DNA of 64,000 nucleotides from Minisyncoccota bacterium (GTDB lineage Bacteria; Patescibacteriota; Minisyncoccia; Phycocordibacterales; Phycocordibacteraceae): positions 11,700-75,699 of the forward strand of contig JBDSUM010000007.1 of the NCBI GenBank assembly GCA_039927695.1, written 5' to 3'. The notes below the pieces were generated by a model that had not been told where the DNA came from, did not search any database, and saw only the letters and a program-made list of their open reading frames with translations. The first letter of the stretch is position 1, and every line of letters starts with the position of its first letter. Shown in pieces: positions 15,472 through 32,583 of this stretch. The position numbers and the translations under genes are program-made.

Positions 15472-16539
15472 ATGCCCAGAATATGGACCGCTGAGGCCGT
15501 TGTCTCAGCGATTAAAACACTTCAAGATAATGGAGAGGCTCTTGATCTAACCTCAATCAACCAAGCTCACCGAAATCTACTTTGGGCTGCTACGAAATAT
15601 CATGGTACCTGGAGAAAGGCTGTTGAGGCATGTGGGATTGAATATTCATCAGTCTCACGAATTGCAATTGATCGCCAGTCCTGGGATAAGGAAAAGATAA
15701 TTGCGACACTGAAGAGTTTGTACGAACAGGGTCTTCCCTTGAATTCCAATTACGTACAGACAAAGCAACAACGTCTCTTTGGTGCTGCAACTAAATATTT
15801 CGGTGGTTGGCCTCAAACAGTGGAAGCTGCTGGTCTGAATTATGACAGGTTGCGAAAGGTAAAACTGCGCAACTGGTCCATAGAAGTAATCATTGAAGCA
15901 GTCATACATAGAGCACACTCCGAGAAATCGATAAGTGGGGCTGTTGTCTATGAAGAAGATAGAGGTCTATATCAAGCAGCTAAAAGACACTTGGGTAAAG
16001 GTGGTTGGGCTAAGGCACGAGTACTTGCAGGTTTCGCTCCAATCGATCCAGATCCCAAAAGGAAATGGACTGAAAAGAGTGTGACTGAAGAGATTCAGCG
16101 TCTTCATGCAAATGGAGTACAGCTTTACACCCAAGCCCTACAACGGAGCGAATTCAGTTATATTCTTGCAGCTGGTCGGAAAGTATTCGGAACATGGGCA
16201 TGCGCAATTGAACGCGCTAGCTTAAATTACGCTGAAATTCGAAAGGGCCGCAAGAACTTCTGGACACGTGAAGAAGTACTCCGAGGAATTAAAGGTCTTG
16301 AGGCGCAAGGTGTCCGCCTTAGTTTAAAGGAAGTAAGAGTTGGTCGTAGTGGTCTTATTGCAGCTGCGATAAAGTATTTCGGTTGCTGGAGTCAAGCGGT
16401 GGAAGCCGCAGGAATTCAGTACCGTTTACATTGCCAGACCTGGTCAACAAAAGCATGGCTGCGTCGCATGCATGTAGATGAATACAACGCGACTCTTGAA
16501 ACTTCACGAACACTTGCTAAGAAAAGGAGAATGCAATGA
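15472..16539 (+). CDS. Tandem-repeat protein (homing-endonuclease-associated-type ~50-aa repeats, no nuclease domain)
   Basis: Five repeats with core a.KYfGsW..AvEaAGi.Y (ATKYHGTWRKAVEACGIEY, ATKYFGGWPQTVEAAGLNY, AIKYFGCWSQAVEAAGIQY and two more). Confidence 0.5.
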   Translation: MPRIWTAEAVVSAIKTLQDNGEALDLTSINQAHRNLLWAATKYHGTWRKAVEACGIEYSSVSRIAIDRQSWDKEKIIATLKSLYEQGLPLNSNYVQTKQQRLFGAATKYFGGWPQTVEAAGLNYDRLRKVKLRNWSIEVIIEAVIHRAHSEKSISGAVVYEEDRGLYQAAKRHLGKGGWAKARVLAGFAPIDPDPKRKWTEKSVTEEIQRLHANGVQLYTQALQRSEFSYILAAGRKVFGTWACAIERASLNYAEIRKGRKNFWTREEVLRGIKGLEAQGVRLSLKEVRVGRSGLIAAAIKYFGCWSQAVEAAGIQYRLHCQTWSTKAWLRRMHVDEYNATLETSRTLAKKRRMQ

Positions 16540-17582
16540 GTATTTCAGCTATCACTAAGCACGGGTTCAAGTTGATTCCGGTTGCTGATATCCAAGAAAC
16601 TGTGGTGCAACTTCGCACCCATTATGCCAATGAGCCTCTTCAAGAACTGGGCAATTCTCTCGAAGATGATGGACTACTTCAGCCCATTGTCGTTGCCCCT
16701 GGTGATGAATTCAAATTCGAACTCATTATCGGCTCACGCCGTCTTCGGGCAGCACGTCATAAGGGTATGGAAGAAATTCCAGCCCTCGTGATTGAGGAGA
16801 CCAGTCCTCTGAATTATCTGCTGATTGCACTCGGCGAGAACCTTCATCGAGAAGACCTGAATCCATTTGAGGAGGCACACGCGTTCCTCCGTCTTATGAA
16901 GGATTACGGGCTTGGTGTGCAGGAAGTAGCCGTAAGAACGCATAAGGGCGAAGCGTTCGTTCGGAAGCGGATGGAATTGCTCAGTATGCCTGAGAATGTT
17001 CAGGCAATGATTGCTGAGAAGAAACTCGCCCTCCACTTCGTCCAAGCACTTGCTCGTTTGCCTACGGGTGAACAACAAGTGTATTACGCGCAGAAAGCTC
17101 TCTCTGAGGGTCTGTCAATCAGCGAGCTTCGGCAGTTGATTACAAGTGACGCGGGCGAGATGGCACCAAGAACAAAGCGGGATTTCTCCGCTGATAAAGT
17201 TCGTGTTCGTATCGATATGTTCGCTCGCTGGATGAAGCGACTCTCGGCGAACAGTGCCTTCAACAGAAGCCTCAATGCAGAAGAACGGGCTGCACTCGCG
17301 CGATCTGTCCAATCTCTGGATGGAGAGCTACGTGTTGCTCGTTCGGTGTTTGGCGAGTGGGTAGGTCGCACACCTGTGCGCTCGATCCCCAATCTGAGCA
17401 ATATCGTTGATGATCCCGATAACCATGGTGACCAGTGGTCACTGCGGCATATCGAAATGATTACCGCCAACGATCGCCCTTCTGACGATATGCTTGCAAC
17501 CAAGCTCGGCAGAAGTGTTGCTGCTATTCGTGGTATGCGATCCAAGATGCAAAGAGAAAGGAAGGATCGAAAAACCGGGTAA
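16536..17582 (+). CDS. ParB-like N-terminal domain protein
   Basis: ParB box LQPIVVAPGDEFKFELIIGSRRLRAARHKG; start overlaps the previous stop (ATGA). Confidence 0.75.
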   Translation: MSISAITKHGFKLIPVADIQETVVQLRTHYANEPLQELGNSLEDDGLLQPIVVAPGDEFKFELIIGSRRLRAARHKGMEEIPALVIEETSPLNYLLIALGENLHREDLNPFEEAHAFLRLMKDYGLGVQEVAVRTHKGEAFVRKRMELLSMPENVQAMIAEKKLALHFVQALARLPTGEQQVYYAQKALSEGLSISELRQLITSDAGEMAPRTKRDFSADKVRVRIDMFARWMKRLSANSAFNRSLNAEERAALARSVQSLDGELRVARSVFGEWVGRTPVRSIPNLSNIVDDPDNHGDQWSLRHIEMITANDRPSDDMLATKLGRSVAAIRGMRSKMQRERKDRKTG

Positions 17583-18303: not shown

Positions 18304-19050
18304 TTGACTTATAATCTAACAAAGACAGGTGCTGCTTGGTGTCTAATAATCTTTGCTGCTTTTCTGGTATTTTCAGTAATCTTCCTAGCGTTCAGTATAG
18401 AAGATATCGAACATCTTTTTAGTATCGGCGGCTCACTCTCAATTGTAGTCGCACTCTTGGCGTATTTATATAAAAAAGAACAGGATCAAATCATCTCAAC
18501 AATTGATCAGATAACATTTTTTCGCGAAATAATAATTCCAGAGTCTGACTCAGTTAGAAAAGAAATGATTAAAAAGGATCCTCAGTTCGTAGTCTCTAGA
18601 ATAAGCCTCAAGAAACCTTCCATAGTAGAAATAAAAGAAGAGTTGCCTACAAATTTTGATAGACAATTAGAGATATTTTTTGATGCAAAAACTGCATATC
18701 CAAGTTTTATATTAGACGCAAAGATACTGGACAGACAGATTACATTACTAAACTTGCTTGAGGAATTTTCCCTCAAGGTCTTGGCTCGAGGAACAACTAG
18801 CAGTCCTGTATTAAAGGCGCTGCATAATGTGTTCGTTGAGACGGTAGAACAAAACTCTGTGGCGCTTTTGTTTGTAAGAGATTTAAAGAATACACCGCCA
18901 ACATATGAATCCATCCTTTCCCTTTATCGCGCGTGGGTAGATGGCACGACAAAAACTGTCTTGATTAAGAATCTGTATTCTGCGGGACTTATTAATAAAG
19001 AACAGAAGGATTATTTTTATACCGTTCGTCGTGAAGAAAAGGGTTTCTAG
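18304..19050 (+). CDS. Hypothetical membrane-anchored protein
   Basis: TTG start right after repeat copy 3; N-terminal TM pair. Confidence 0.4.
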   Translation: MTYNLTKTGAAWCLIIFAAFLVFSVIFLAFSIEDIEHLFSIGGSLSIVVALLAYLYKKEQDQIISTIDQITFFREIIIPESDSVRKEMIKKDPQFVVSRISLKKPSIVEIKEELPTNFDRQLEIFFDAKTAYPSFILDAKILDRQITLLNLLEEFSLKVLARGTTSSPVLKALHNVFVETVEQNSVALLFVRDLKNTPPTYESILSLYRAWVDGTTKTVLIKNLYSAGLINKEQKDYFYTVRREEKGF

Positions 19051-19074
19051 TTTTCTTAATATAAAAGATATATA

Positions 19075-19104
19075 TTTGTTCGAATACCGTCCCAGACGGC
19101 CAGC
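19075..19104 (+). repeat. Conserved intergenic repeat, copy 4
   Basis: tttgttcgaataccgtcccagacggccagc. Confidence 0.85.
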
Positions 19105-19144
19105 CAAGTTGAGATAGGTTCTGGCGTCCGAGACGCATTGATAT

Positions 19145-19193
19145 AACCAAAGGAAGAAAACCACCTCAATGAGGTGATTTTCTTCCTTTGGTT
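19145..19193 (+). terminator. Long stem-loop (possible terminator or structured RNA) after repeat copy 4
   Basis: aaccaaaggaagaaaaccacctca / tgaggtgattttcttcctttggtt; ~23-bp stem with one mismatch; 3' arm U-rich. Confidence 0.5.
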
Positions 19194-19255
19194 ACTCGAC
19201 GCTGGATCTTGTGTCGATAGTCCTGTAAGATATAGAATGTAAGTAGTTATTTTTC

Positions 19256-20941
19256 ATGAAACGAAAACCCCAAGTCATTGATTTCTTTTGTGGTGCCGGA
19301 GGCTTCTCCGAAGGCTTTCGTCAGCAAGGGTTTGAAGTCGTTATGGGTATCGATAATTGGTTGCCGGCAATAGAGACACACAACCTTAATCACAATCTTA
19401 ATGACAAGGTTAGAGACGTGCTCGAATTTGGCAACTCGCTTGAAGAAATAAATTCGCTGCCCGATACAGAGGTTATCGTGGGAAGTCCTCCTTGCGTGCT
19501 TTTCTCTCTCTCTAACAAAGGAGGTAAAGCTGATAAGACACTCGGTATTCGATTGATCGAATCCTATCTGCGTGTAATCGCTATAAAAAAGCACCAGCCA
19601 TCGTCGCAACTAAAGGCATGGTTTATGGAGAATGTTCCGAACTCTAGGAACTATATTCGTCCCACCTATACATTTAGCGAGCTGGATCTGACTGAATGGG
19701 CAAGAAATCACGGTTTTGATCCTAATCAGATTGCTCTGAACGGCTCATCAAACGGAATCGTATTAAATACAGCTGAATTTGGTGTCTCTCAAAAACGAGA
19801 ACGTTTTGTGTGTGGTGAGATCATCTCTACGGGCAAGTTCCCGAACCTAGAAAAATTTATGAGCAAGACGTATCGCAGCATTGGAGAGGTAAAAGGAAAG
19901 ATGCCTGCGCCTAATTTGCCGCTATCAAATAAATTATTTTCTGACCCTAATTATCCTTCCACATCTTTTAAGATGAAGGATATGACTGATCATTTCTATG
20001 ATTCAGGTATATATGAAATCCAGTGGAGGAATGCTCAATATCTAAAGGTAAATCATCCCTTCATGGGAAAGATGTCCTTTCCTGAAGACGAGAAGAACCC
20101 GAGCCGTACTATCATGGCAACCCGTTCAATGACCACACGAGAATCTCTAATATACAAATCAGAATATAGTCGACGAGGAGATGGGGAATACAGATTACCT
20201 ACTATACGCGAGATAGCAACTCTCATGGGTTTTCCATACTCGTATCAATTCTCAGGAGCGGAGAATACAAAATGGAGACAGGTTGGTAATGCCGTTTGTC
20301 CTCCTATGAGTTCAGCTCTTGCCAAGAGCGTAAGACTATCTATTGGATTAAGTGTAATTCCCGTTTCAAAAATTACCTTCAATTCTCTTAAGGGTAAGCT
20401 AGACAGGATTCAGAACATAAATACTTTCTCTGAAAAGAAATTTAATGATCCGCCAAAAAGGAAACTAAATGCGCGTTTCCGAAGGCATCCTTTTAAGGAT
20501 GGTAATATGACGGTTGCTTTAACGAACTTTAATCCGGTATCTCCAATCGATTCTCCTGAAGTCACAGAGTGGTATTCATCTGTATTCATGGGCTCTGGTA
20601 AAGACTTTACTATTAAAATTCTCACTAAGAGTCAATTCAAAGAAATTGCTAAATTTATTGAAGTAAATAATAAGGACTTGAGTACAAAATTTACTCAGGA
20701 ATTTAATGAAAAGTTTAAAGCTGTTATTGGTAATACTCACAAGTTTCAAGAAGCCTACGTGTTAGAAAACTCTCGCTTGCCTCATGAGCCTGGACGTTTG
20801 GTAGATGAAATTAGTGACTTCATACGCGCGTTTGATTCAACGGAAAAACACATGCAAATTCCAGATTTTCTTCCAGGAAAGAATCTGTTACCTATCCGAC
20901 AAGTCCTCGCCATGTACGCTCTCAATAGACTTGTGTCGTAA
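19256..20941 (+). CDS. DNA (cytosine-5)-methyltransferase
   Basis: Motif I FFCGAGGFSEGF; motif IV GSPPCVLFS (PC); motif VI ENV (WFMENVPN); motif VIII QKRERF; long C-terminal target-recognition region. Confidence 0.9.
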   Translation: MKRKPQVIDFFCGAGGFSEGFRQQGFEVVMGIDNWLPAIETHNLNHNLNDKVRDVLEFGNSLEEINSLPDTEVIVGSPPCVLFSLSNKGGKADKTLGIRLIESYLRVIAIKKHQPSSQLKAWFMENVPNSRNYIRPTYTFSELDLTEWARNHGFDPNQIALNGSSNGIVLNTAEFGVSQKRERFVCGEIISTGKFPNLEKFMSKTYRSIGEVKGKMPAPNLPLSNKLFSDPNYPSTSFKMKDMTDHFYDSGIYEIQWRNAQYLKVNHPFMGKMSFPEDEKNPSRTIMATRSMTTRESLIYKSEYSRRGDGEYRLPTIREIATLMGFPYSYQFSGAENTKWRQVGNAVCPPMSSALAKSVRLSIGLSVIPVSKITFNSLKGKLDRIQNINTFSEKKFNDPPKRKLNARFRRHPFKDGNMTVALTNFNPVSPIDSPEVTEWYSSVFMGSGKDFTIKILTKSQFKEIAKFIEVNNKDLSTKFTQEFNEKFKAVIGNTHKFQEAYVLENSRLPHEPGRLVDEISDFIRAFDSTEKHMQIPDFLPGKNLLPIRQVLAMYALNRLVS

Positions 20942-20985
20942 TTGACAAAAGGCTCAAATGCAGGGAATATGATGATTAAGACTGC

Positions 20986-22413
20986 ATGAACAAAGCCACT
21001 CGAAGTCAGAAGATTGGGGAAATCACTGCTGGCGAACCCTACGGCAAGCAAGATATTCTCTGGCATGGAAAGCTCGTGTCAATGAACGTATATGAGATTC
21101 CTCTCGAGTATTTGATTTACAACAGGTACAACGGACGAATTCTTAGTCGAACAAAGACTCTTGAAAAGCAGGGACGGGATATAAATCCTGAATCCGATGA
21201 GGGCAAGAAGCTCATCGAGAATCTTCTTTGGAAATCCAAGGAATCGAGAAACGATATCACTATGAAAGATATCTCCGATAAGGGTCAATTGAAGATTGGT
21301 ATTGTAACCAAAGATGGAATCGTTATCGATGGAAATCGGCGCTTGATGCTTCTTAACAGAATTAAAAAGCATCGCCACTTTAAAGCAGTAGTTCTTCCTG
21401 TCGCCCTTGAAGATGATCCTATTGAGATTGAGAAGCTGGAGACAACATACCAAATGGGTGAGGATGAGAAGCTCGGCTATAACCCAATCGAGAAGTATCT
21501 CAAAGCAAAACAAATCTATAAGAAGCTTACAGAGCAAGAAACTCACGATGATGCCATAAAGCAGATTGCTGAATGGATGGGGGAGGAAAAAGGAGTTATT
21601 GAAGACTGGCTAGAGGTAGTCAAAATGATAGATGATTATCTCGAGTATCTAAAGTACGACGGGATATACTCCATGGCTGACACTCCAAACGACGGTAAGG
21701 AAGACCTCTTCTTGTATATAAAGAAATGGCTAAATACTTTCCACGATAAAGAGTCTAATAAAGGATTCGATGGGTACAGCCAAATGGATGTAGATGATCT
21801 TAAACAAATTTCTTTTGACTATATTCGCGCTAAGATTGGAAAATCCTATGATGGAAAACAGTTTCGTTACATCGCTGATGGTCAAAAGCAGAAACATTTC
21901 TTTGGAGACAAGAAACTGTGGGCTAGTTTTAGCGAAGATCACTTTGCGGCAGTTACCCCCGCAATCGAAAAGATAGATTTTGAATATCCAATTGATTATA
22001 ACTCTGAAAATATTGAAGCATCTCTCTCAAATAGAGATGCAAAGTTCAGAGATGAGGTATTGGATGTTCTGACAAAGAATATTGAAGAACATGTGACAGA
22101 CCTCGGCTATGCTGAAGCTGCTGATAAACCTCTCAAGCTCGTAAGTAATGCGCGAAAGGCTATTGAATCTATTGATCAAAAGCACAAAGCCTTCTCAGCG
22201 CCTGAAGTCATTGAGCAGGTTGAAGAATTGATCCAGACTCTCATAGGAATGCTAAAGAAGAAGTCTCCTGAGGAAACGGTCTCTTTAGTTGCGAATCTGC
22301 TCGAATCTCTTGAATTGAATTCGGGATCGATTGACAAGGAAGGTATGCTCGAAAAGGTAAAGGAAATATCGCGTCTAGCTTATCAAATTGAGAAAGACGT
22401 TAAATCGCTGTGA
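20986..22413 (+). CDS. ParB/Srx-fold (ParB-like nuclease domain) protein
   Basis: GQLKIGIVTKDGIVIDGNRRLMLL matches the ParBc core; rest unrecognised; 475 aa. Confidence 0.55.
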   Translation: MNKATRSQKIGEITAGEPYGKQDILWHGKLVSMNVYEIPLEYLIYNRYNGRILSRTKTLEKQGRDINPESDEGKKLIENLLWKSKESRNDITMKDISDKGQLKIGIVTKDGIVIDGNRRLMLLNRIKKHRHFKAVVLPVALEDDPIEIEKLETTYQMGEDEKLGYNPIEKYLKAKQIYKKLTEQETHDDAIKQIAEWMGEEKGVIEDWLEVVKMIDDYLEYLKYDGIYSMADTPNDGKEDLFLYIKKWLNTFHDKESNKGFDGYSQMDVDDLKQISFDYIRAKIGKSYDGKQFRYIADGQKQKHFFGDKKLWASFSEDHFAAVTPAIEKIDFEYPIDYNSENIEASLSNRDAKFRDEVLDVLTKNIEEHVTDLGYAEAADKPLKLVSNARKAIESIDQKHKAFSAPEVIEQVEELIQTLIGMLKKKSPEETVSLVANLLESLELNSGSIDKEGMLEKVKEISRLAYQIEKDVKSL

Positions 22414-22425
22414 TAATGAATATTC

Positions 22426-24402
22426 ATGAGCCAATCTATAAATATTCATACAGATAACGAGAGACATAGTTTCTATTTAACAGGTAATATCCCAGAGTTA
22501 CTTGCGAATTCTAGACTGCTTTTCTCGCTCAAGAGATTACAATACACCCCTCACGAAGAGGGAATGTTAGTACCATTTGAAGATAAGACTAAAATTAAAG
22601 TTCTCCAAGAGATTCAAATGCTCATGGAGAAGTTTTCTTTCGATGTTGAACTTTCGATAGAAACCAAGAAAGATGTTTCTAGCTTTGATCGTGAGCAACA
22701 GACATTTAAGGAATTCTCAGAGAAGGCACGAGATATCCGTAACAATCGGTTCAAGGATGAACCTGAGTTAGTTGTAGACTTCGATTCCTTTCAGAAGGCA
22801 TTAAAGGATAAAATCGTACGTCCTTTATATCCTCTGCAATTATTGTCTGCTTTTCACATGGCTTTCTCGCAAAATGCTTGTAATTTTGCAGTGCCAGGTG
22901 CAGGAAAGACCTCAATTGTTTACGGTGCGTATACCTACCTAAAAAGTCTTCCTACTGATCATCCTAAACACGTCGACAAGCTTCTTGTGATTGGCCCGCT
23001 TTCATCTTTCGCGCCGTGGGAAAATGAATATGAGGCTTGTTTTGGTGAAAAGCCCACCTCGCAAAGATTGTCAGGGGACGATAAGGTTTTGCGTAATCAT
23101 AAGGAGCAACACCTTTTTTCGAGTAATCCTGCTGAACTAACCCTTATATATCATGGAGGTGTTGTTCATCTTCAAAATGAAATACTTTCTTTTCTAAAGA
23201 GAAATAAGACTATGGTGGTAGTTGACGAGGCACACCGAATTAAGAATCCTGAGGGTGTATGGGGCAAGAGCGCCGTAGAGATTTCAAAAGAAGCGGTCTC
23301 CAGAATCATTCTTAGCGGTACACCAGTTCCCAATGGCTATGAGGATTTATTTAACTTATTCCAATATCTATATCCGTATCGCTATAAGGACATACTACAT
23401 TTCCACTACGATAATTTAGTTGAAATGACCAAAACAGCTTTGCCCGATAGCGATCGAGTAAAGCAATTCATAGATAATATCTCACCTTACTTTATACGTA
23501 TTAAAAAGTCTGATCTTAAATTGCCTCCAGTTAAGGAGAATAACGTAATGGTTGATATGGATTCTCACCAAAGAGAAATCTATGATTTTATTGAGACAAA
23601 ATACATACGTTCCTTTGAAAATAGTAATACGGCGGCAGCAAAAGATGTCTTAAATAAAGCGAAATTAATTCGTTTAAGACAGGCAGCTACAAATCCCTCT
23701 CTGCTCCTTAAGCCCATAGTAGAAACCCTCTATGCTGACGACTACGAATCAAGAATCTCTATAGGCGGACGTATGCCTGAAGAATTTCAAGATGATTCAG
23801 AGATACTCTCAAAGATATATAACTATCAGAAGGTAGAGACCCCTAAGAAATTCTATGAAATTAAGAAGTTGTTAGAAGAAAAAATCCTTGCAGGTAATGG
23901 TAAGGCAATTATTTGGACGATATTCATACAGAATGCCAAACAACTTCAAGAGTATCTAATGGAGAATGGTATTCCGATTCGTCTACTTATTGGAGAGGTT
24001 GAACAATCAGAGAGGGAGGTAATTATCACAAAATTCAATGATCCGAATGACAGTGATTTTCAGGTAATCATCGCAAACCCATTTGCCGTGTCAGAGTCTA
24101 TATCTCTGCATAAGGGATGTCACAACGCTATTTACATGGAGCGTGATTATAACTGTTCTAACTTCCTTCAATCAAAAGATCGTATACACCGATATGGCCT
24201 AGCGGACAATCAAGAGACTAATTATTACTATTTCTTATCACAAGATTCTATTGATGGAGTCATTCACGATAAATTAGAGGAGAAGGTCAAGAGAATGGAA
24301 AGAATTATCGATGAAGAAATACCACTTTTCGCTCGACTTAATGACTCTGACGAAACAGATTTGATAACAGCTCTTATAGACGATTATGCTAAAAGAGCTT
24401 GA
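22426..24402 (+). CDS. SNF2-family helicase/translocase
   Basis: Motif I PGAGKT; motif II DEAHRIKN; motif III LSGTPVPNGYEDLFNLFQYL; helicase-C motif VI SKDRIHRYG. Confidence 0.85.
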   Translation: MSQSINIHTDNERHSFYLTGNIPELLANSRLLFSLKRLQYTPHEEGMLVPFEDKTKIKVLQEIQMLMEKFSFDVELSIETKKDVSSFDREQQTFKEFSEKARDIRNNRFKDEPELVVDFDSFQKALKDKIVRPLYPLQLLSAFHMAFSQNACNFAVPGAGKTSIVYGAYTYLKSLPTDHPKHVDKLLVIGPLSSFAPWENEYEACFGEKPTSQRLSGDDKVLRNHKEQHLFSSNPAELTLIYHGGVVHLQNEILSFLKRNKTMVVVDEAHRIKNPEGVWGKSAVEISKEAVSRIILSGTPVPNGYEDLFNLFQYLYPYRYKDILHFHYDNLVEMTKTALPDSDRVKQFIDNISPYFIRIKKSDLKLPPVKENNVMVDMDSHQREIYDFIETKYIRSFENSNTAAAKDVLNKAKLIRLRQAATNPSLLLKPIVETLYADDYESRISIGGRMPEEFQDDSEILSKIYNYQKVETPKKFYEIKKLLEEKILAGNGKAIIWTIFIQNAKQLQEYLMENGIPIRLLIGEVEQSEREVIITKFNDPNDSDFQVIIANPFAVSESISLHKGCHNAIYMERDYNCSNFLQSKDRIHRYGLADNQETNYYYFLSQDSIDGVIHDKLEEKVKRMERIIDEEIPLFARLNDSDETDLITALIDDYAKRA

Positions 24403-25360
24403 GCAATATGAGAACCTTGGCACGCCAGCGTTCTTTGCAGAGTTATTTAACCAACTCCACGGAGCAGAACTCCCTTGGACGTCTAGCCACGTAAGAGGTT
24501 ATTTTTATAACAGGATTGTAGATGACAATTCTGTCTTTGATGGCTGTCTTACCTTAGTTGAAGCCATTGGTGCAGTGACCATCGATAGCGGTGGAAACAT
24601 CACACTAAACCCTTCTTTGGTGCCAATGCTCGTAAACGAGAGATACCTTGCGAACAAGTTACTTGAGATGCTATTGGCTGTAGTAAAGGAAGATGAAATT
24701 TTTCATGAAATATTCTGTCCCAAGAATCTCTCATACGACATTATATATAAACTGATTCAAATTGATGGTTCAGCTTTTCGATTCCGCTATGCTAGTTTTA
24801 GGCAATTGCTGGTAAGTTTTGAATTCTTATACCCTCATCCTGAGAAGAGCATCAGAAAATATATAGTTAATTCAAGGTATAAGAAGCTGTTTGATCAACA
24901 GATTTTACCTGAAATACGTCAGCGTAAACTTGGCATTGAAGAACTCGAGGCTCTTCTAGAAAGGAAACAAATCTATGGAGAACAGGCAGAATCATATGCC
25001 CTCGAATATGAAAGAAAAAGATTGGCCAAACATTCAAGTTTGGGCAATGTTGAATTGATTTCTGGATATGATGTCGCCGCAGGATATGATTTGATCTCCT
25101 ACGAAGATGAATCTTCAACAGAGCTCGATCGGTTTATAGAAGTAAAATCCTTTTCAGGTACTCCAAGCTTTCATTGGTCACGCAATGAAATAGATGTCTC
25201 AAGACTAAAAGGGAAGAGATATTTCCTCTATTTAATAAATAGAGACGAAATGGCAAATTCAACCTATGTTCCTACAATCATACAGAATCCCTACGATGAA
25301 GTATTGTCGGATGATAGTTGGACGAAGCGTGTAGATAGTTATTTTATAATTAAGAACTAG
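24386..25360 (+). CDS. DUF3883-like (predicted PD-(D/E)xK nuclease-related) C-terminal domain protein
   Basis: GYDLISYEDESSTELDRFIEVKS resembles the DUF3883 core; overlaps the SNF2 stop (operon). Confidence 0.45.
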   Translation: MLKELEQYENLGTPAFFAELFNQLHGAELPWTSSHVRGYFYNRIVDDNSVFDGCLTLVEAIGAVTIDSGGNITLNPSLVPMLVNERYLANKLLEMLLAVVKEDEIFHEIFCPKNLSYDIIYKLIQIDGSAFRFRYASFRQLLVSFEFLYPHPEKSIRKYIVNSRYKKLFDQQILPEIRQRKLGIEELEALLERKQIYGEQAESYALEYERKRLAKHSSLGNVELISGYDVAAGYDLISYEDESSTELDRFIEVKSFSGTPSFHWSRNEIDVSRLKGKRYFLYLINRDEMANSTYVPTIIQNPYDEVLSDDSWTKRVDSYFIIKN

Positions 25361-25606
25361 GTCTTAGTGATACCACTTTTTCCTTCAGTTCAATTTTCCC
25401 GCGTAGACAACCGAGCAGTTCTCTTTTCTCCATATCTTTTCCTTCGCGTAATAGATACTTTGCATAAGCTCTTATATCAATCTCCTGAACGTGTTTATCA
25501 GATAAGGCCATATCAGCTATGCTAGGGCTAAAAATGGGACGCCAATCCTTAATGGGGAGGCGTGTCCCATTTGTCTCATTTTGCGATAAGCGTATAGTTT
25601 GGCTAT

Positions 25607-25888
25607 ATGGATGAACAGAAGATTATTGATGATTTAACTTCGCAAGGGTACGACAAGGTCTGGCCTTATGAAGCTGAACCTGGAGAAGTAGACGAGGAAC
25701 ATGAACATGACTTTGATACTCATCTCGTCGTTCTAAGAGGACAGATCTCAATAACTTCTTTAATTGATGGGGTGGTTACGAACATGTCTCATAGTACGGG
25801 GAGCAATATATTTATCGCTCGAAATACACCTCATGCGGCTAAAGTGAGTGCAGAGGGTTGTCGCTACATTGTTGCTGAAAAGCACTAG
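25607..25888 (+). CDS. Small cupin-fold protein
   Basis: 93 aa; His/Glu-containing beta-strand segment typical of cupin_2; weak. Confidence 0.35.
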   Translation: MDEQKIIDDLTSQGYDKVWPYEAEPGEVDEEHEHDFDTHLVVLRGQISITSLIDGVVTNMSHSTGSNIFIARNTPHAAKVSAEGCRYIVAEKH

Positions 25889-25955
25889 TCCGAGACGGGT
25901 CAAATTCAGAAGATAAAATTCGCTCAGAAAGCCTTGTGGGGCTTGGCGGGAGAAA

Positions 25956-25977
25956 GTTCGAATCCCAGACAGCCAGC
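25956..25977 (+). repeat. Conserved intergenic repeat, copy 5 (internal 6-nt deletion)
   Basis: gttcgaatcccagacagccagc. Confidence 0.55.
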
Positions 25978-26059
25978 ATTTTAGAAAAGTATCGAAGGAC
26001 CTAGAGGGGTCGGTTTGGGACTAAGTGCTTTAGAGTGAATTTTCTATATAATTCTAGTT

Positions 26060-28768
26060 ATGAATAGACTGGATAGTGAAATACTAACGATCGATACAGC
26101 CATCTGTGAAAATATCGATAAATTCCACGCCTCAGAAAGAGGTCTTTTGTCGCAGAATATCTTGGCTCAGCTTAGGAATTTTGTTGAGCATATCGCCCTA
26201 AAAGAAGAATCAAACGGACAAGACATTGATTTTACATTTGAAGATTTAAAGAACGCGCCTAATAGAATACAACCGAAGGGATCGCTGGCATACTTGAGGA
26301 GATTTCATAATTTTTTACAAGGAGTGGCCTCACACTATACGCAGAGCAAAGAAAACTCAGAACGCCTAATGCTGAAATACTATGAGTATTTAATCAGGAT
26401 TAAATCCCGTCTTAAGAACACCTATGGCTTAGAGGTGCTAAGTAATATTGATAAGTTCCCAACAAATACGGATCCTGCCTTGCAGGAATATTACGAAAAG
26501 ATAGTGGAGAAAATCGAACGCCCAACAAAAGCGAGAAGGGTCAGTCCTTATAGTGATCGGTACTATATCCAGAAGATCAAACCATTTTTTGTTAAGCACG
26601 AAATATACTACGAAGTCACTTTTACAATTGCGAGCGCTCAAGTTAGTAAATTTGATAGAGTCATCGCTTTTACCAAGCTAGATATTTCCGATAATTACGC
26701 CGTTAAACTTTCCGTAATACATGACGATATTGAGGTCTTGGGCAAAAAGATGCCTATTCACATCATTGATAAATGGGAGGTTTCTGTTCGACCTTGCGAG
26801 CTTAACAACTTTAGTCGCATTTTGGGTGAGAATGTAGATATTCAATCAAAGAGTACGGAATACAAAAACCTGATGAGTTTTTTGACAGAGACTAGTCTAA
26901 GTTTCGTTGAGCTTATCGATCTCTCTGATGATTACTATGATGCTGCGAAAAGCCGTATCGCTCAGGGGGTACAAGCAATACACTTCCTAACTGTCTTAGA
27001 TAAGGCAAAGGCCTTGGTTAGGGGTAATGAAGTTGGTACTAACGTGGTGAGATATTTACTGCGATCTTTAAACAATAGGATTATAAAGCTACAACGAAGT
27101 CGCTATGGCGGGTACAAACTTCGAGAAGATTTAGGCTTCAATCTTGGATGTAAGCCGTTCGATACAATGCCTTTCAACTCCTCACTGATAGGACACAACC
27201 CAAAGATTTCAGATGTTTTTGAGTGTATTAGTGCAGCAGATCGAGAGCATGAACTTTTTGCAAGACTAATTAAGGACAATACAGAAAATAAAGGAAAACT
27301 ATATACGCCTGTAGAAGGTTTACCTCAGACAAAGGAAGAGATTGCAGAGCTAGTCGCTACTTACAACGCTGAGCTTTACTACAAGCACACACATCGCAAG
27401 TTAGAAAACTTTAGAGATTTTATTTATATAAACGGTTATGAAAAAGATACTTTAGACATAATTAAAAGACTCAAAGAGTTGTCATCAGGTGGGATAAACA
27501 ACTATTCGAATTCTGTAGATTCGTGGCTGAAGTCGTCCGCATATCAAATTGACTGCGAAGATAAGGAAAGGATTCTAAGACAGATGTTTACAGATTCTGA
27601 AGTGGCATTGATATACGGTGCAGCTGGTACTGGAAAATCAACGTTGATAAACCACATATCAAACTTTTTCAACGAGAATCAGAAGCTCTACTTAGCCAAT
27701 ACCAATCCCGCCATTGATAACTTGAAGAGAAAAGTTAACGCATCAAATAGCACCTTTCAGACGGTTGCTAAATTCCTATCGCATCGAAATACCGAAACAG
27801 AATTCGATCTCCTTATTATTGATGAGTGCAGCACCGTTAGTAATAAAGATATGATTGATGTTTTGAATAAGGCAAAGTTTAAATCCCTTATATTGGTTGG
27901 TGATGTATTCCAGATAGAATCGATAATATTTGGAAACTGGTTTAATGTTGCAAGATCCTTTGTGCCAAAAACGGCGGTATCCGAACTAACAGTTCCTTAT
28001 CGGACTACGAATCAAGAACTGATTAAATTTTGGAACAGAGTTAGAAATCTTGAAGACAATATTCTTGAAAGCATGACGAGGAATGGTTATACCACCGTCT
28101 TAAATGAATCCATTTTTGAGACCCTAGAGGACGATGAAATTATTCTCTGTTTAAATTACGACGGTCTGTACGGCATAAACAATTTAAACAAGTTTCTTCA
28201 GGGTAGTAATGAAAATGTTCTTGTGCATTGGGGCATACAAACTTACAAGATTGGTGACCCTGTTCTCTTTAACGAAACAGATCGATTTGCGCCAATAATC
28301 TATAACAACCTAAAAGGCCGAATTGTTGGTATAGATAAATCTGAAGATCAGATCCAATTTGATATTGAGATAGATAAGGCAATAAATGAATTGCAAGCAT
28401 CAGGCTATGATTTTGAATTGGTCGGGAGTGCTGCAAACGGGAATTCAGTAGTCAGATTCTTGGTTAGCAAGCAAGGAGACACGGACGAAGATGATGAGCC
28501 GCTAGATTCAGTGGTCCCATTTCAAGTCGCCTATGCTGTGTCAATTCATAAGGCTCAAGGTCTAGAATACGGTTCTGTGAAGGTTGTGATTACGAATGAA
28601 AGCGAAGAGATGATCACTCATAACATTTTTTACACAGCCATAACTAGAGCTAAGGAGAAACTTAAAATATATTGGACGCCTGAAGCAGAGAAAAAAGTAT
28701 TAAGTGGTTTTAAGAAGCTAGATGCGACAGAAGATGTCGGACTTCTGTCCTCGAAGCTCACCTCATAA
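26060..28768 (+). CDS. SF1 helicase (RecD/Pif1-like, AAA_30 + UvrD_C_2) with ~500-aa uncharacterised N-terminal domain
   Basis: Walker A GAAGTGKST; Walker B LLIIDECS; VGDVFQ motif III; C-terminal VSIHKAQGLEYGSV...FYTAITRAKEKL. Confidence 0.8.
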   Translation: MNRLDSEILTIDTAICENIDKFHASERGLLSQNILAQLRNFVEHIALKEESNGQDIDFTFEDLKNAPNRIQPKGSLAYLRRFHNFLQGVASHYTQSKENSERLMLKYYEYLIRIKSRLKNTYGLEVLSNIDKFPTNTDPALQEYYEKIVEKIERPTKARRVSPYSDRYYIQKIKPFFVKHEIYYEVTFTIASAQVSKFDRVIAFTKLDISDNYAVKLSVIHDDIEVLGKKMPIHIIDKWEVSVRPCELNNFSRILGENVDIQSKSTEYKNLMSFLTETSLSFVELIDLSDDYYDAAKSRIAQGVQAIHFLTVLDKAKALVRGNEVGTNVVRYLLRSLNNRIIKLQRSRYGGYKLREDLGFNLGCKPFDTMPFNSSLIGHNPKISDVFECISAADREHELFARLIKDNTENKGKLYTPVEGLPQTKEEIAELVATYNAELYYKHTHRKLENFRDFIYINGYEKDTLDIIKRLKELSSGGINNYSNSVDSWLKSSAYQIDCEDKERILRQMFTDSEVALIYGAAGTGKSTLINHISNFFNENQKLYLANTNPAIDNLKRKVNASNSTFQTVAKFLSHRNTETEFDLLIIDECSTVSNKDMIDVLNKAKFKSLILVGDVFQIESIIFGNWFNVARSFVPKTAVSELTVPYRTTNQELIKFWNRVRNLEDNILESMTRNGYTTVLNESIFETLEDDEIILCLNYDGLYGINNLNKFLQGSNENVLVHWGIQTYKIGDPVLFNETDRFAPIIYNNLKGRIVGIDKSEDQIQFDIEIDKAINELQASGYDFELVGSAANGNSVVRFLVSKQGDTDEDDEPLDSVVPFQVAYAVSIHKAQGLEYGSVKVVITNESEEMITHNIFYTAITRAKEKLKIYWTPEAEKKVLSGFKKLDATEDVGLLSSKLTS

Positions 28769-28787: not shown

Positions 28788-30110
28788 TTAAATTATATCC
28801 ACACGTTTGTTGTTTAGGACTATTTTACTCTTCAGACACGTCAATAAATCTCGCTTCTCAAACATCGATCCTTCGGTCAGAAGATACTTTGCATAGTTCC
28901 TGATGTCGGCTTCCTTTGCATAATAGATTTCTTCGGCTTTGCCCATGATGCCGGAGTGGAACTTCTTGTGCCGTTCAATCTCGGCCTCCAGTTTCTTCTT
29001 GATGCCTGAATGATCAAGGTCGACTTGGTCGATGATTTCTGTTAGTTGGTTGATGAGAATCTTCTCTTCGATATACCCCTCCTTGCAATTGATGTCTTTG
29101 GATCGGGTGCAGCCGTAGTAAATATACTTTGCAATTGAACCGTCCTTGAGGTTTTTAAACTTCTCCTGGGCAGTTACGCCTGAACCGCACGCTCCGCAGG
29201 AGAGGAGTCGAGTAAAGGCAAACTCCTTGTTCTTATTTGGCGCGCGGATTTGAAGATGGAGTTGTTTCTGGACGGCATCGAATAATTCCTTAGATATGAG
29301 CGGTGCATGCTTTCCCTGGAACCATCGTCCGCTTGTTTTCGGATACTCAAACGAACCGTGATAGAAGTGGTTGGCCAGAATAACGTAGACATTGCTCAAA
29401 GTGAGAGGCTTTCCGGTTCTTGTGACGAACTTAATATCCTTGAGCCACCTGTATACCTTACGGCCACTCCATCCCTCGTTCGCTACTTTCTGGAAGAGTT
29501 CCTTGATAATCGGTGCTCGGTCGGGATCTATGAACACGACACCCTTCTGATCCTTATTCTTGGAGTTGAGGTATCCAGTTGGCGCTACTGACGGCCAGAG
29601 ACCCATTTCGCATTTGGTCTTGAGGCCGCGCTTTACGTTAATACTCTTGTTGTCGTTCTCAAGCTTGGCTTGGGAGCCAAGAATCATGAGGAGAAACTTC
29701 TCGTTCGGATTGTTGGTGAAGCGTTGGCTGTAGGTACGGATTTCTATGAGTTTCTTCTGATCGAGGAGGTCTACTACTGCACCGAGGTCTCCCGCATTTC
29801 GAGCTAGGCGGTCAGGATGCCAGACGAGGATGCCGTTAAACTTTCCCTCGCGGATATCGAGAAGCAGTTTGTTGTATACCGGTCGCTGTCCGGCATCCTT
29901 TGCGGAATGTGACTCTCGATACATATCCACCACGTTCAACCCATCTCGCTGAGCTACGGCCAACATCTCGTTTAGTTGGGAATCTATGGAGAGTGCCTGC
30001 TTCTCTTCAGCTTCGCTCGATTTACGGGCGTACAGGCAATACCTGACGGGTTCCTGCTCCTGGAGGCCGGGAATAGTTATATTCGCTCCATATGCTGTTG
30101 CGGTTTCCAT
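28788..30110 (-). CDS. Large serine recombinase (paralogue of 714..2033)
   Basis: YCLYARKSSEAEEKQ catalytic motif; roughly three-quarters identical by eye to the 714..2033 protein over the catalytic domain; zinc ribbon CGACGSG...YYGCTRSKDINC. Confidence 0.9.
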   Translation of the reverse strand: METATAYGANITIPGLQEQEPVRYCLYARKSSEAEEKQALSIDSQLNEMLAVAQRDGLNVVDMYRESHSAKDAGQRPVYNKLLLDIREGKFNGILVWHPDRLARNAGDLGAVVDLLDQKKLIEIRTYSQRFTNNPNEKFLLMILGSQAKLENDNKSINVKRGLKTKCEMGLWPSVAPTGYLNSKNKDQKGVVFIDPDRAPIIKELFQKVANEGWSGRKVYRWLKDIKFVTRTGKPLTLSNVYVILANHFYHGSFEYPKTSGRWFQGKHAPLISKELFDAVQKQLHLQIRAPNKNKEFAFTRLLSCGACGSGVTAQEKFKNLKDGSIAKYIYYGCTRSKDINCKEGYIEEKILINQLTEIIDQVDLDHSGIKKKLEAEIERHKKFHSGIMGKAEEIYYAKEADIRNYAKYLLTEGSMFEKRDLLTCLKSKIVLNNKRVDII

Positions 30111-30302
30111 ACGACACGAACATACCGGACACGGCTACGAAGTCTAGTGCATAACGACTTACGGAGCAGAAGGGTGGAAGAGTCAACGACTATACAAGTT
30201 CGGAGAATGAAGCTAAGGTACGGACGTTCGCTAAGAATGCTTATTTCTGTCATAATTTACCCGTATAAGGCTTGGGTAAGAAAGATTGAGCCGAATAACT
30301 TT

Positions 30303-31478: not shown

Positions 31479-31479
31479 T

Positions 31480-32583
31480 ATGAAAATAGAACTACATAAA
31501 ATCAAAGTGCGTGAAGTGGTCGATGGCTACAAAGATAGTCACGAGGAAGGCGTCGTGGCGTATGGCGGCAAACTTGATGTTCGTCCAAAATATCAGCGCG
31601 AATTCGTCTACAAAGACAAGCAACGTGATGCGGTTATCGATACTGTCAGACAAGGATTTCCTCTTAACGTTATGTACTGGGTACAAAGTGGAGAAGGCAG
31701 TTTTGAGGTGCTAGATGGACAACAGCGAACAATCAGTATTGGTCAATATGTAAACGGAGATTTCTCAGTTGATTTCAGTGGACGAACAGCAATGTTCCAT
31801 AACCTCACCAAAGAAGAACAGGAGCAGATTCTCAACTATGAGTTGATGATCTATTTTTGTGAAGGAACCGATAAAGAAAAGCTCGATTGGTTCAAGATTA
31901 TTAACATCGCTGGAGAGCGTCTTACGGATCAGGAATTACGCAACGCCGTCTACACCGGCCCATGGCTTTCAGATGCGAAACTCAAGTTCAGCAAATCCAA
32001 TTGTGCCGCGTATCTTTTGGCGAACGACGGTGGTGCATTACTTACTGGCTCACCAATTCGGCAAGAATATTTGGAAACTGCACTGGACTGGATAAATAAC
32101 GCCGAAGTTGCTGAGTATATGGCAAAACATCAGCACGACAAAAACGCTAACGAATTATGGGAGTATTTTCAAAATGTAGCTGAGTGGGTACGGAAAACAT
32201 TTCCCAATTACCGCAAAGAGATGGCGAATGTTAATTGGGGTGAGTTGTATAACGAATTTAAGGATAGGAAGCTTGACGCTAAAAATCTAGAATCCGAAGT
32301 TGCAGAATTGATGCAGGATGAGGACGTAACAAAGAAATCAGGTATTTACCCTTACACACTCACTAGGCAAGAACGGCATCTTTCGATACGCGCTTTCAAC
32401 GATAAGATGAAGCGTGAAGCTTATGAGAGACAGAAGGGTATCTGCGTAAAGTGTGGAAAGCACTTTGAAATCGAAGAGATGGAAGCGGATCATATAACCC
32501 CATGGCACGAGGGTGGTAAAACGACAGCACAAAATTGTCAGATGCTGTGCAAGCAAGATAATCGAACCAAGTCAGATAAGTAA
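31480..32583 (+). CDS. DUF262 (ParB-like, DGQQR) + C-terminal HNH nuclease; GmrSD-like type IV restriction enzyme family
   Basis: YQREFVY...[12 protein letters not shown]262 signature; C-terminal CVKCGK...[32 protein letters not shown] motif. Confidence 0.8.

What the first reader, a model, noticed from the sequence alone, without database searches (positions are those of the whole stretch)
19075..25977. Candidate novel defence operon between two repeat copies: C5 cytosine MTase + ParB-like protein + SNF2 helicase + DUF3883-like protein
Four co-directional, tightly spaced or overlapping genes at 19256-25360. The set is a full-motif C5-MTase, a 475-aa protein with a ParBc-type DGNRR core, an SNF2 translocase with DEAH, and a DUF3883-like predicted nuclease-fold protein. 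The combination (modification enzyme + translocase + putative nuclease + ParB/Srx-fold NTPase/nuclease-like protein) is reminiscent of DISARM (SNF2 DrmD, MTase). It lacks DUF1998/DrmA/DrmC, and I cannot match it to any named system (DISARM, BREX, Dnd, Ssp, Dpd, Druantia, Zorya, Hachiman). The unit, together with a small cupin gene, is exactly bracketed by repeat copies 4 and 5 and a long stem-loop. This suggests it moves as a cassette.
Basis: partly seen in the sequence, partly recalled or inferred. Interest (0 to 1): 0.8.

Follow-up and report, generated by a model that had tools for sequence, protein, structure and literature searches.

The report
AbiR-like methylase–ParB–SNF2–nuclease defence operon
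This is a real, intact four-gene operon (a DNA cytosine methylase, a ParB-fold protein, an SNF2 motor and a nuclease) that is kept together in at least 80 species across more than ten phyla; it is most likely an unnamed anti-phage system related to the poorly understood lactococcal AbiR system.

Summary
The four genes are present as described and all look intact. They are a full-motif C5 methyltransferase with a ~200-aa extra C-terminal domain, a ParB/Srx-fold protein, an SNF2 ATPase, and a winged-helix + PD-(D/E)xK (NOV_C/DUF3883) nuclease. No Pfam, NCBIfam or PADLOC model assigns them to a named system.

The order MTase–ParB-like–SNF2–effector recurs in 80 species-representative genomes, from Patescibacteria to a Methanolobus archaeon. 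Flanks vary, and the cupin gene and the repeats are not conserved with it.

Three comparative signals point to methylation-gated defence:
- A Vsr gene is adjacent in 29/80 loci.
- The effector's C-terminal domain is swapped for TIR in some loci, or the whole gene is replaced by a Sau3AI/MutH-like nuclease.
- Distant ParB-like+SNF2 pairs sit beside Type II and Type III R-M genes and on Firmicute plasmids.

These plasmid trios (sigma70-like + ParB-like + SNF2) match the published description of lactococcal AbiR. AbiR needs an R-M methylase and is toxic without it.

So the operon is a new variant of an AbiR-like, R-M-like kind, not DISARM. The "cassette bracketed by repeats" idea is not supported: the unit shared with the closest relative is 19199–25343.

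The parts
19199..19255 (+). Conserved 5' leader / probable promoter of the operon. This is the left edge of the DNA shared with the closest relative.
   Evidence: blastn of L002 against the window aligns 19199-25343 at 71% identity. The stretch CTGGATCTTGTGTCG and an A/T-rich -10-like box are shared.
19256..20941 (+). C5 cytosine DNA methyltransferase, 561 aa. The catalytic core is aa 1-360. A system-specific C-terminal domain (aa ~365-561) has no library match.
   Evidence: PF00145 E 1.3e-35 and all motifs in the translation. The full length including the C-terminal domain is conserved in 62/74 loci directly upstream of the ParB-like gene. No Pfam hit for aa 361-561 even at E<=5. In-frame MTase-CTD::ParB-like fusions occur in P0243 and L082.
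20986..22413 (+). ParB/Srx-fold protein, 475 aa: an N-terminal ParB-like NTP-binding/nuclease-type domain with invariant DGNRR, a helical middle part and a low-confidence helical tail.
22426..24402 (+). SNF2-family ATPase/translocase, 658 aa, with a ~150-aa N-terminal domain that shows no conserved nuclease motif.
   Evidence: PF00176 + PF00271. PDB sequence hits are SMARCA5, CHD1L, ISWI, DDM1 and Sulfolobus Rad54-like. It lies directly downstream of the ParB-like gene in 76/77 loci. It is 32% identical over 545 aa (E 1e-84) to the SNF2 of the E. faecalis plasmid trio. N-terminal domain homology: hhalign probability 95.5%.
24386..25360 (+). Effector, 324 aa: an N-terminal winged-helix adaptor region (aa 1-~190) plus a C-terminal PD-(D/E)xK nuclease (NOV_C/DUF3883). 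It overlaps the SNF2 gene by 17 nt.
19144..19194 (+). Long hairpin just outside the conserved unit (context only). It is probably a terminator or insulator of the upstream gene.
   Evidence: 25-nt arms, 96% complementary. It lies outside the DNA shared with L002, which has an unrelated hairpin at the equivalent place.

Best explanation
This is a four-component anti-phage/anti-plasmid system of the R-M-like kind. It is built around the same ParB-like + SNF2 pair that, by architecture, defines lactococcal AbiR.

Proposed working:
1. The C5 methyltransferase marks the host's own DNA at its target motif. The enzyme is shown intact; in-vivo activity is inferred from the frequent Vsr companion gene.
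2. The ParB/Srx-fold protein acts as a nucleotide-dependent DNA-binding switch or loader. It works with, and may be physically tied to, the methylase through the methylase's extra C-terminal domain. This step is inferred from rare in-frame fusions.
3. The SNF2 motor translocates on double-stranded DNA that lacks the mark (inferred).
4. The motor delivers or activates the last protein. That protein docks through its winged-helix N-terminal region and cuts DNA with its PD-(D/E)xK domain (nuclease fold and catalytic residues shown; activity inferred).

In sister operons the same adaptor carries a TIR domain instead, or the gene is replaced by a Sau3AI/MutH-like nuclease. The output is therefore a swappable effector. 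Without the methylase the system is expected to be toxic to its host, as was reported for AbiR.
For: 1. Operon structure and intact catalytic motifs in all four proteins.
2. Co-conservation in order across 80 GTDB species representatives from many phyla and one archaeon. SNF2 is present in 76/77 loci, the adaptor-bearing fourth gene in 70/74, the long MTase directly upstream in 62/74, and all four in 57/70. No other flanking gene is conserved. This pattern is typical of horizontally moving defence modules.
3. Where the long MTase is missing, another C5 MTase is adjacent (L015, L044, L046, L048, L049, L068, L069, Javan191).
4. A Vsr (T:G mismatch endonuclease) gene is adjacent in 29/80 loci. 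From established knowledge, Vsr is the usual companion of active m5C methylases, as with Dcm-Vsr.
5. Effector swapping on a shared adaptor: NOV_C or TIR; replacement by a MutH/Sau3AI-like nuclease; PLD fused to the SNF2 on an Exiguobacterium plasmid.
6. A ParB-like+SNF2 pair lies directly behind a Type III R-M on a L. lactis plasmid. In 52 Enterococcus plasmids it sits in sigma70-like + ParB-like + SNF2 trios. These are homologous to the window proteins at E 4e-21 and 1e-84.
7. Published AbiR has a sigma70-like protein, a ParB-like protein (best PDB match 5K5D, the same as here) and a nuclease/SNF2 protein. It needs the LlaKR2I methylase and is toxic without it (PMC13064643).
8. The window is a defence-island context: PDC-S53, GmrSD-HNH, an EcoRI-like MTase and serine recombinases.
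Against: - There is no experiment on this operon or any close homologue.
The link to AbiR therefore rests on architecture, a shared top structural match, and homology to plasmid trios that fit the published description.
- No name 'AbiR' appeared among homologues, and PADLOC has no matching model.
- The sigma70-like AbiR component is absent here.
- The methylase, including most of its target-recognition region, is unusually well conserved across phyla, unlike the diversifying specificity of classical R-M.
- The role of the ParB-like protein is pure inference.
- Related ParB + methylase + SNF2 domain sets are also used by phages and plasmids for counter-defence (PMC5512222).
Confidence: 0.68

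Rival explanations
1. Two independent things lie side by side: a Type II-like R-M pair (C5 methylase + NOV_C nuclease) and a separate, generic ParB-like+SNF2 add-on that merely tends to sit next to R-M genes. Under this reading they do not form one machine.
For: The ParB-like+SNF2 pair occurs next to quite different R-M modules: Sau3AI-like, Type III and BanI/DpnII-like. It also occurs without an obvious nuclease gene in E. faecalis plasmids. DUF3883 proteins are treated as Type II REases in one REBASE-based survey (PMC10609329).
Against: - The fourth gene overlaps the SNF2 stop codon and follows it in 70/74 loci.
- Its adaptor region is kept when the catalytic domain is changed to TIR, which makes no sense for a stand-alone restriction enzyme.
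- The methylase has a system-specific C-terminal domain, and it is fused in frame to the ParB-like protein in two cases.
- AbiR itself is toxic without the methylase.
Confidence: 0.14
2. It is a mobile-element establishment or counter-defence module. The methylase, ParB-like protein and SNF2 helicase would protect incoming element DNA from the recipient's restriction, like the P1 Dar proteins or the polyvalent proteins of conjugative elements.
For: - ParB-superfamily, DNA methylase and SWI2/SNF2 domains are hubs of polyvalent proteins of phages and conjugative elements (PMC5512222).
- The SNF2 matches phrog_62 (E 2e-69) and the MTase matches phrog_116.
- Distant pairs sit on conjugative or mobilizable plasmids.
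- Serine recombinases flank the unit here and in L002.
Against: - Flanks in 80 genomes are mostly ordinary chromosomal genes; no conjugation or virion genes are among the commonest neighbour families.
- Only 5 weak or partial hits in 50,697 phage records. The best one is at the edge of a predicted prophage.
- TIR and nuclease effectors, and a Vsr companion, fit host defence rather than protection of incoming DNA.
- AbiR is an experimentally shown phage-resistance system.
Confidence: 0.1
3. It is a housekeeping epigenetic or repair module: SNF2-assisted cytosine methylation with a ParB-type DNA organiser, comparable to eukaryotic DDM1/LSH working with DNMT enzymes.
For: The best PDB sequence matches of the SNF2 include DDM1 and LSH. 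The best matches of the methylase's motif IX-X region are DNMT1.
Against: The distribution is patchy and crosses phyla, with variable flanks. The fourth gene is always a toxic-type effector, either a nuclease or TIR. The PDB matches reflect only the general SNF2 and C5-MTase cores.
Confidence: 0.04

Closest known systems
AbiR of Lactococcus lactis plasmid pKR223 (Twomey 2000; Yang 2006; re-analysed in PMC13064643)
   Same: - A ParB-fold protein, with the same best PDB match 5K5D over ~200 residues.
- It is followed by an SNF2-family ATPase.
- There is a functional tie to a DNA methylase of an R-M system, and AbiR is reported to be toxic without it.
- The window's ParB-like and SNF2 proteins are homologous (E 4e-21 and 1e-84) to plasmid sigma70-like + ParB-like + SNF2 trios that fit the AbiR description.
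- CPR and Petrimonas variants of the present system sit next to a Sau3AI/MutH-like nuclease + C5 MTase pair. From my own memory, not verified here, that is the type of LlaKR2I.
   Different: - There is no sigma70-like component.
- The methylase is dedicated and in the operon, with an extra C-terminal domain, rather than borrowed from a neighbouring R-M.
- The nuclease is a separate winged-helix + NOV_C protein. AbiRc is described as having an N-terminal nuclease-like domain, whereas the window SNF2's N-terminal domain has no conserved catalytic motif.
- Direct sequence comparison with AbiR itself could not be done.
Hma / Type-1 BREX-related (BR) systems (HmaA SNF2+DUF3883 nuclease, HmaB N6-methylase, HmaC DUF499 ATPase)
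   Same: The combination of SNF2 ATPase, DUF3883/NOV_C PD-(D/E)xK nuclease, a DNA methylase and one further NTPase-type component. The proposed logic is R-M-like (PMC11232893, PMC12839542).
   Different: - SNF2 and nuclease are separate genes here.
- The methylase is C5, not DUF1156 N6.
- The third component is ParB/Srx-fold, not a DUF499 AAA+ ATPase.
- No HmaA hit is among the 25 best of 27 PADLOC matches.
DISARM
   Same: An SNF2 helicase plus a (C5) methylase in one defence operon.
   Different: There is no DrmA helicase, no DrmB (DUF1998) and no DrmC (PLD). The SNF2 scores 55 bits against the DrmD equivalog, whose cut-off is 610.
Type III restriction-modification
   Same: Methylase + SF2 ATPase + PD-(D/E)xK nuclease, with ATP-dependent action on unmodified DNA. 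One distant ParB-like+SNF2 pair sits directly behind a Type III R-M.
   Different: The methylase is C5 rather than N6/N4 Mod. The motor is SNF2 rather than Res-type, and the nuclease is a separate protein. There is an additional ParB-fold protein, and some variants carry TIR effectors.

Membership tests
AbiR (lactococcal) | ParB-like protein (AbiRb/AbiRii) | tested here: inconclusive
   The fold and the top PDB match (5k5d) are the same as published for AbiRii. The window protein is homologous to the ParB-like protein of plasmid trios with AbiR architecture, E 4e-21.
AbiR (lactococcal) | SNF2-type ATPase with N-terminal nuclease-like domain (AbiRc/AbiRiii) | tested here: inconclusive
   The SNF2 core and the N-terminal region are homologous to the plasmid-trio SNF2 (E 1e-84; hhalign 95.5%). 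No conserved nuclease motif is seen in the window-type N-terminal domain. The nuclease is a separate gene here.
AbiR (lactococcal) | Sigma70-like protein (AbiRa/AbiRi) | tested here: not met
   No such gene lies in the window operon or next to the pair in the 80 loci. It is present in the E. faecalis trio.
AbiR (lactococcal) | Requires a cognate R-M methylase; toxic without it | not testable with these tools
   This is an experimental property (PMC13064643). Genomic linkage to a C5 MTase is near-universal here.
DISARM | DrmA helicase + DrmB (DUF1998) core | tested here: not met
   There are no DUF1998 or DrmA/B hits in the four proteins or their neighbours. The only DrmA hit is at the Helicase_C level, E 7e-7.
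DISARM | DrmD-type SNF2 protein | tested here: not met
   NF038317 scores 55.3 bits against a cut-off of 610. The protein is 658 aa and the model about 1020 positions.
Hma / Type-1 BR | HmaA: SNF2 fused to a DUF3883 nuclease | tested here: not met
   Both domains are present but on two proteins. No HmaA model is among the listed PADLOC hits.
Hma / Type-1 BR | HmaB DUF1156 N6-methylase and HmaC DUF499 ATPase | tested here: not met
   The methylase is PF00145 C5 type. There is no DUF499; the extra protein has a ParB/Srx fold.
Type III R-M | Mod (N6A/N4C methylase with TRD) + Res (Res-type SF2 helicase fused to a nuclease) | tested here: not met
   The methylase is C5, the motor is SNF2 and the nuclease is on a separate protein.
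PD-T4-1 | Single-gene DUF3883 system matching the full-length profile | tested here: not met
   Only the C-terminal domain matches (profile positions 227-349 of 383, E 1.6e-13). The gene is embedded in a four-gene operon.
Zorya | ZorA/ZorB membrane motor with ZorD SNF2-Mrr | tested here: not met
   Only SNF2-core matches to ZorD profiles, covering 244 of 1071 positions. There are no ZorA/B genes nearby.
   The repeat is absent from the 81 other loci. The DNA shared with the closest relative is 19199-25343, which lies inside the repeats and excludes the cupin gene.

The most novel reading that the evidence does not exclude
A widespread, unnamed family of methylation-gated immune systems. A ParB/Srx-fold NTPase and an SNF2 motor form a portable sensing/translocating core. 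This core plugs into different DNA-methylation modules (a dedicated C5 MTase, Type II R-M or Type III R-M). Through a winged-helix adaptor it drives interchangeable effectors: a PD-(D/E)xK nuclease, TIR, a MutH-like nuclease or PLD. The TIR variants would mean that 'unmethylated DNA' can be coupled to an abortive-infection output rather than to cleavage. AbiR, unexplained since 2000, would be one branch of this family.
Probability: 0.5. Interest if true: 0.75.

Novelty: new variant of a known kind. Interest (0 to 1): 0.6.

Why it matters
- It would give a mechanism-ready, four-gene model for the long-unexplained AbiR type of phage resistance.
- It shows that this type is not a lactococcal curiosity. 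It is spread across Patescibacteria, Bacteroidota, Campylobacterota, Acidobacteriota, Proteobacteria, Firmicutes and an archaeon.
- It adds a ParB/Srx-fold protein, better known from chromosome partition and CTP-gated DNA clamps, to the set of components that read self versus non-self DNA.
- The nuclease/TIR swap on a shared adaptor offers a natural experiment on how R-M-like sensing can be wired to different outputs.
- Current annotation tools (PADLOC v2, NCBIfam, Pfam) miss the system, so it is under-counted in defence-system censuses, notably in CPR bacteria.

Tried and rejected
- Megablast of 19000-26000 against plasmids and phages found no match.
- Pfam, NCBIfam, PADLOC and PHROGs on the ParB-like protein gave no significant hit. 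The same was true for the MTase C-terminal domain, the effector N-terminal region and the SNF2 N-terminal domain even at E<=5.
- A PDB sequence search with the ParB-like profile found nothing meaningful.
- No tRNA is in the window, so the tRNA-att idea for the repeat has no support. Rfam has no family for the repeat or the hairpin.
I rebuilt the alignment from database hits.
- The primary AbiR papers (PMC1426540, PMC110594) are not held. pKR223 is not among the PLSDB records hit. The last homologue search returned no protein named AbiR. PADLOC gave no AbiR-type hit for the plasmid trios. Direct AbiR homology therefore remains untested.
- Literature searches for the four-domain combination found no description of this operon.
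- A DISARM, Zorya, Dpd or BREX helicase assignment was rejected. The hits cover only the SNF2 core and lie far below the curated cut-offs.


Full report
**The observation.**
The window comes from a Candidatus Paceibacterota MAG, according to the source's name for the identical protein. Four + strand ORFs lie at 19256-20941, 20986-22413, 22426-24402 and 24386-25360. The gaps are 44 and 12 nt, and the last two genes overlap by 17 nt.

- **Gene 1** is a C5 cytosine methyltransferase (PF00145, E 1.3e-35). All catalytic motifs can be read in the translation. It also has about 200 extra C-terminal residues with no library match.
- **Gene 2** has no hit in Pfam, NCBIfam, PADLOC or PHROGs.
  - The DGNRR motif is invariant.
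  - A sub-threshold ddrB-ParB Pfam hit covers it.
- **Gene 3** is an SNF2 ATPase with intact helicase motifs.
- **Gene 4** carries NOV_C/DUF3883.
  - Its model (pLDDT 84) shows winged-helix domains followed by a PD-(D/E)xK fold like Hjc, I-Ssp6803I, RecU and NhoI.
  - D235, E252 and K254 are conserved.

The repeat at 19076-19104, a degenerate copy at 25957-25977 and the 25-bp-arm hairpin at 19144-19194 are all real.

**Is it a unit?**
A scan of one genome per GTDB species with the ParB-like alignment returned 80 loci. tblastn with the window proteins shows the same order, MTase–ParB-like–SNF2–fourth gene, in nearly all of them. Identities are 28-64% (MTase), 37-80% (ParB-like), 43-81% (SNF2) and 26-66% (fourth gene).

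Counting only loci with enough sequence:

| Feature | Loci |
|---|---|
| SNF2 follows the ParB-like gene | 76/77 |
| Fourth gene with the same N-terminal region follows the SNF2 | 70/74 |
| Long-form methylase directly upstream | 62/74 |
| All four in order | 57/70 |

The hosts include Patescibacteria, Bacteroidota, Campylobacterota, Acidobacteriota, Verrucomicrobiota, Proteobacteria, Erysipelotrichaceae, Chloroflexota, Spirochaetota, Melainabacteria, Caldisericota and the archaeon Methanolobus.

Nothing else is conserved around the unit. The cupin gene and the neighbouring PDC-S53 helicase are not. The ParB-like family is sizeable: 1387 clusters at 50% identity with E<=1e-3, and 193 with E<=1e-30.

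**What the variants say.**
- **A C5 methylase is nearly always there.** Where the long methylase is absent, another C5 methylase is next door.
  - It is downstream together with a MutH/Sau3AI-like nuclease in L046 and L048 (where that nuclease replaces the NOV_C gene) and in L015.
  - It is on the opposite strand in L044, L049, L069 and the S. equi Javan191 record.
  - It is a short form upstream in L068.
- **A Vsr gene is adjacent in 29 of 80 loci**. From established knowledge, Vsr repairs the T:G mismatches that arise from 5-methylcytosine deamination and accompanies active C5 methylases. This is indirect evidence that the enzyme methylates host DNA.
- **The effector is swappable.** Six of 67 fourth genes carry a TIR (or SEFIR) domain instead of NOV_C. 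They keep the same N-terminal region (hhalign probability 99.3%, E 1e-20 over 180 columns). Those loci still have the methylase.
- **Rare in-frame fusions** join the methylase C-terminal half to the ParB-like protein (P0243, L082).
- **The methylase is strikingly conserved,** including much of its variable region. Only aa ~200-240 and parts of the C-terminal domain vary.

**Distant relatives and the link to AbiR.**
tblastn of the ParB-like protein against plasmids and phages found distant relatives, always followed by an SNF2 gene.

| Record | Arrangement |
|---|---|
| 52 Enterococcus plasmids | the E. faecalis record examined (pQZ076-2) has 864-aa sigma70-region-4 protein + 405-aa ParB-like + 620-aa SNF2; the other records were not inspected |
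| A L. lactis conjugative plasmid | the pair directly behind a Type III R-M |
| An Exiguobacterium plasmid | SNF2 carries an N-terminal PLD nuclease domain |
| S. equi Javan191 record | ParB-like–SNF2–NOV_C next to a C5 methylase and a BanI/DpnII-like fragment |

The window proteins align with the E. faecalis pair at E 4e-21 (ParB-like, 33% over 197 aa, motifs kept) and at E 1e-84 (SNF2, 32% over 545 aa).

A 2026 review of lactococcal Abi systems (PMC13064643) describes AbiR as follows:
- AbiRi is sigma70-like.
- AbiRii is ParB-like, with best structural match 5K5D over 196 residues.
- AbiRiii has an N-terminal restriction-endonuclease-like domain and a C-terminal SNF2-type ATPase.
- AbiR needs the methylase of the adjacent LlaKR2I R-M system, is toxic without it, and reduces phage DNA replication.

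That architecture is the one seen in the Enterococcus trio. The same PDB entry is the best match of my ParB-like model. From my own memory, not verified here, LlaKR2I is a Sau3AI isoschizomer with a C5 methylase. If so, it would match the MutH/Sau3AI-like + C5 MTase pairs next to the CPR and Petrimonas variants.

I could not obtain the AbiR sequences. The primary papers are not held. No homologue bears the name, and PADLOC has no matching model. The AbiR relationship is therefore well supported by architecture and by transitive homology, but it is not proven.

**How it most likely works.**
- *Shown:* an intact C5 methylase, a ParB/Srx fold with its conserved arginine motif, an SNF2 motor and a PD-(D/E)xK nuclease lie in one tightly coupled operon. 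The four co-occur across phyla. A C5 methylase is near-obligatorily present. Effector domains are exchanged on a common adaptor.
- *Inferred:*
  1. The methylase marks self DNA.
  2. The ParB-like protein is a nucleotide-dependent DNA-binding switch that works with the methylase.
  3. The SNF2 motor acts on unmarked DNA.
  4. The winged-helix adaptor couples the motor to the effector, which cuts DNA or, in TIR variants, presumably destroys NAD+.
  5. By analogy with AbiR, removing the methylase should be toxic.

I put 0.68 on this overall reading. The individual roles of the ParB-like protein and of the methylase's extra domain are much less certain.

**Rivals.**
- *A plain Type II R-M next to an independent ParB–SNF2 add-on (0.14).* This is weakened by the overlap and constant adjacency of the fourth gene, by retention of the adaptor in TIR variants, and by the methylase::ParB-like fusions.
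- *A mobile-element counter-defence module (0.10).*
  - For it: ParB, methylase and SNF2 domains are hubs of phage and plasmid polyvalent proteins (PMC5512222), and the proteins hit PHROGs.
  - Against it: the flanks are mostly chromosomal, phage records barely contain it, and the effectors are of the host-defence type.
- *A housekeeping epigenetic module (0.04).* This does not fit the patchy distribution or the toxic effectors.

**The cassette idea.**
The element GTTCGAATAYCGTCCCAGACGGYCAGC occurs about ten times in this contig. It is always on the + strand and just upstream of a + strand gene. The exact core is absent from the 81 other loci that carry the system. It is present, with sharp borders and unrelated flanks, in 41 metagenome contigs.

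DNA similarity to the closest relative (L002, 71%) runs from 19199 to 25343 only. It starts after the hairpin and ends at the stop codon region of the fourth gene.

In L002 the unit is followed at once by a large serine recombinase. That recombinase is 52-54% identical to two of the three in this window. The system probably does travel on serine-recombinase elements in CPR bacteria, but the repeats are not its borders and the cupin gene is not part of it.

**Comparison with known systems and novelty.**
The system fails the defining features of DISARM, Hma/BR type 1, Type III R-M, PD-T4-1 and Zorya (see the membership table). Its nearest experimentally known relative is AbiR. It differs from AbiR in lacking the sigma70-like protein, in having its own methylase with an extra domain, and in having a separate adaptor-nuclease.

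I rate it a new variant of a known kind (methylation-linked, motor-plus-nuclease defence; the AbiR branch). It is not in the libraries or papers I could search.

Interest is 0.6. New defence operons are common. This one stands out because it ties an unexplained 25-year-old system to a broad family, brings a ParB-fold protein into self/non-self reading, and shows nuclease/TIR swapping on an R-M-like sensor.

Noticed in passing
window 15237, 18272, 19076, 25957 (degenerate), 35361, 35892, 36138, 36450, 37534, 38420 (all + strand): A 27-29-nt element, GTTCGAATAYCGTCCCAGACGGYCAGC, stands just upstream of about ten different + strand genes. Its exact 21-mer core occurs in 41 metagenome contigs with sharp borders and unrelated flanks (up to 3 copies per contig), and in no viral contig. 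It has no Rfam family. Its layout loosely recalls a tRNA 3' half (TTCGAAT ... CCA), but there is no tRNA in the window. It could be an att-site remnant of serine-recombinase elements or a shared promoter/operator; this is unresolved.
   Followed up: partly
window 26060-28768 (+): A 902-aa SF1 helicase-type protein matches the PADLOC candidate single-gene defence system PDC-S53 over its full length (1307 bits).
   Followed up: no
window 714-2033 (-), 10950-12449 (-), 28788-30110 (-): There are three large serine recombinases (Resolvase + Recombinase + Zn ribbon; best NCBIfam match CcrB-like). The closest relative of the operon (L002) has a 52-54% identical recombinase directly after the fourth gene. 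This suggests the region is a mosaic of serine-recombinase-borne islands.
   Followed up: partly
window 29976-33866 (+): An EcoRI-like adenine methylase (PF13651, E 7e-137), a GmrSD_N+HNH protein and a DUF2130 protein lie in a row. This may be another modification-linked defence module.
   Followed up: no
window 15472-17582 (+): An HNH_repeat protein overlaps a canonical ParB_N + HTH_ParB protein and is preceded by a copy of the repeat. It is distinct from the ParB-like protein of the operon.
   Followed up: no
window 2483-2597 (+): LOOT RNA (Rfam RF03000) at 69.8 bits, above its gathering score of 46.4.
   Followed up: no
window 25350-25511 (-) and 25607-25888 (+): A small 53-aa minus-strand ORF and a 93-aa cupin-like ORF (below the Pfam threshold) lie between the operon and the next repeat. 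Neither is conserved with the operon elsewhere.
   Followed up: partly
window 52630-56511 (+), repeats at 53482-55291: A 1293-aa protein contains four ~82-nt-core direct repeats that encode a repeated domain (62-77% identical copies).
   Followed up: no
L085 (E. faecalis pQZ076-2) 3309-8984; 52 Enterococcus plasmid records: A sigma70-like + ParB-like + SNF2 trio was inspected in E. faecalis pQZ076-2. The ParB-like gene is >=99% identical in 41 of the Enterococcus plasmid records hit. All three genes are annotated as hypothetical or generic. By architecture this is an unrecognised AbiR homologue in a clinical species.
   Followed up: partly
L056 (Patescibacteria group chromosome OY782392.1): tblastn finds all four genes, but no long ORFs are called with table 11. 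This suggests an alternative genetic code (UGA recoded) in that host.
   Followed up: no
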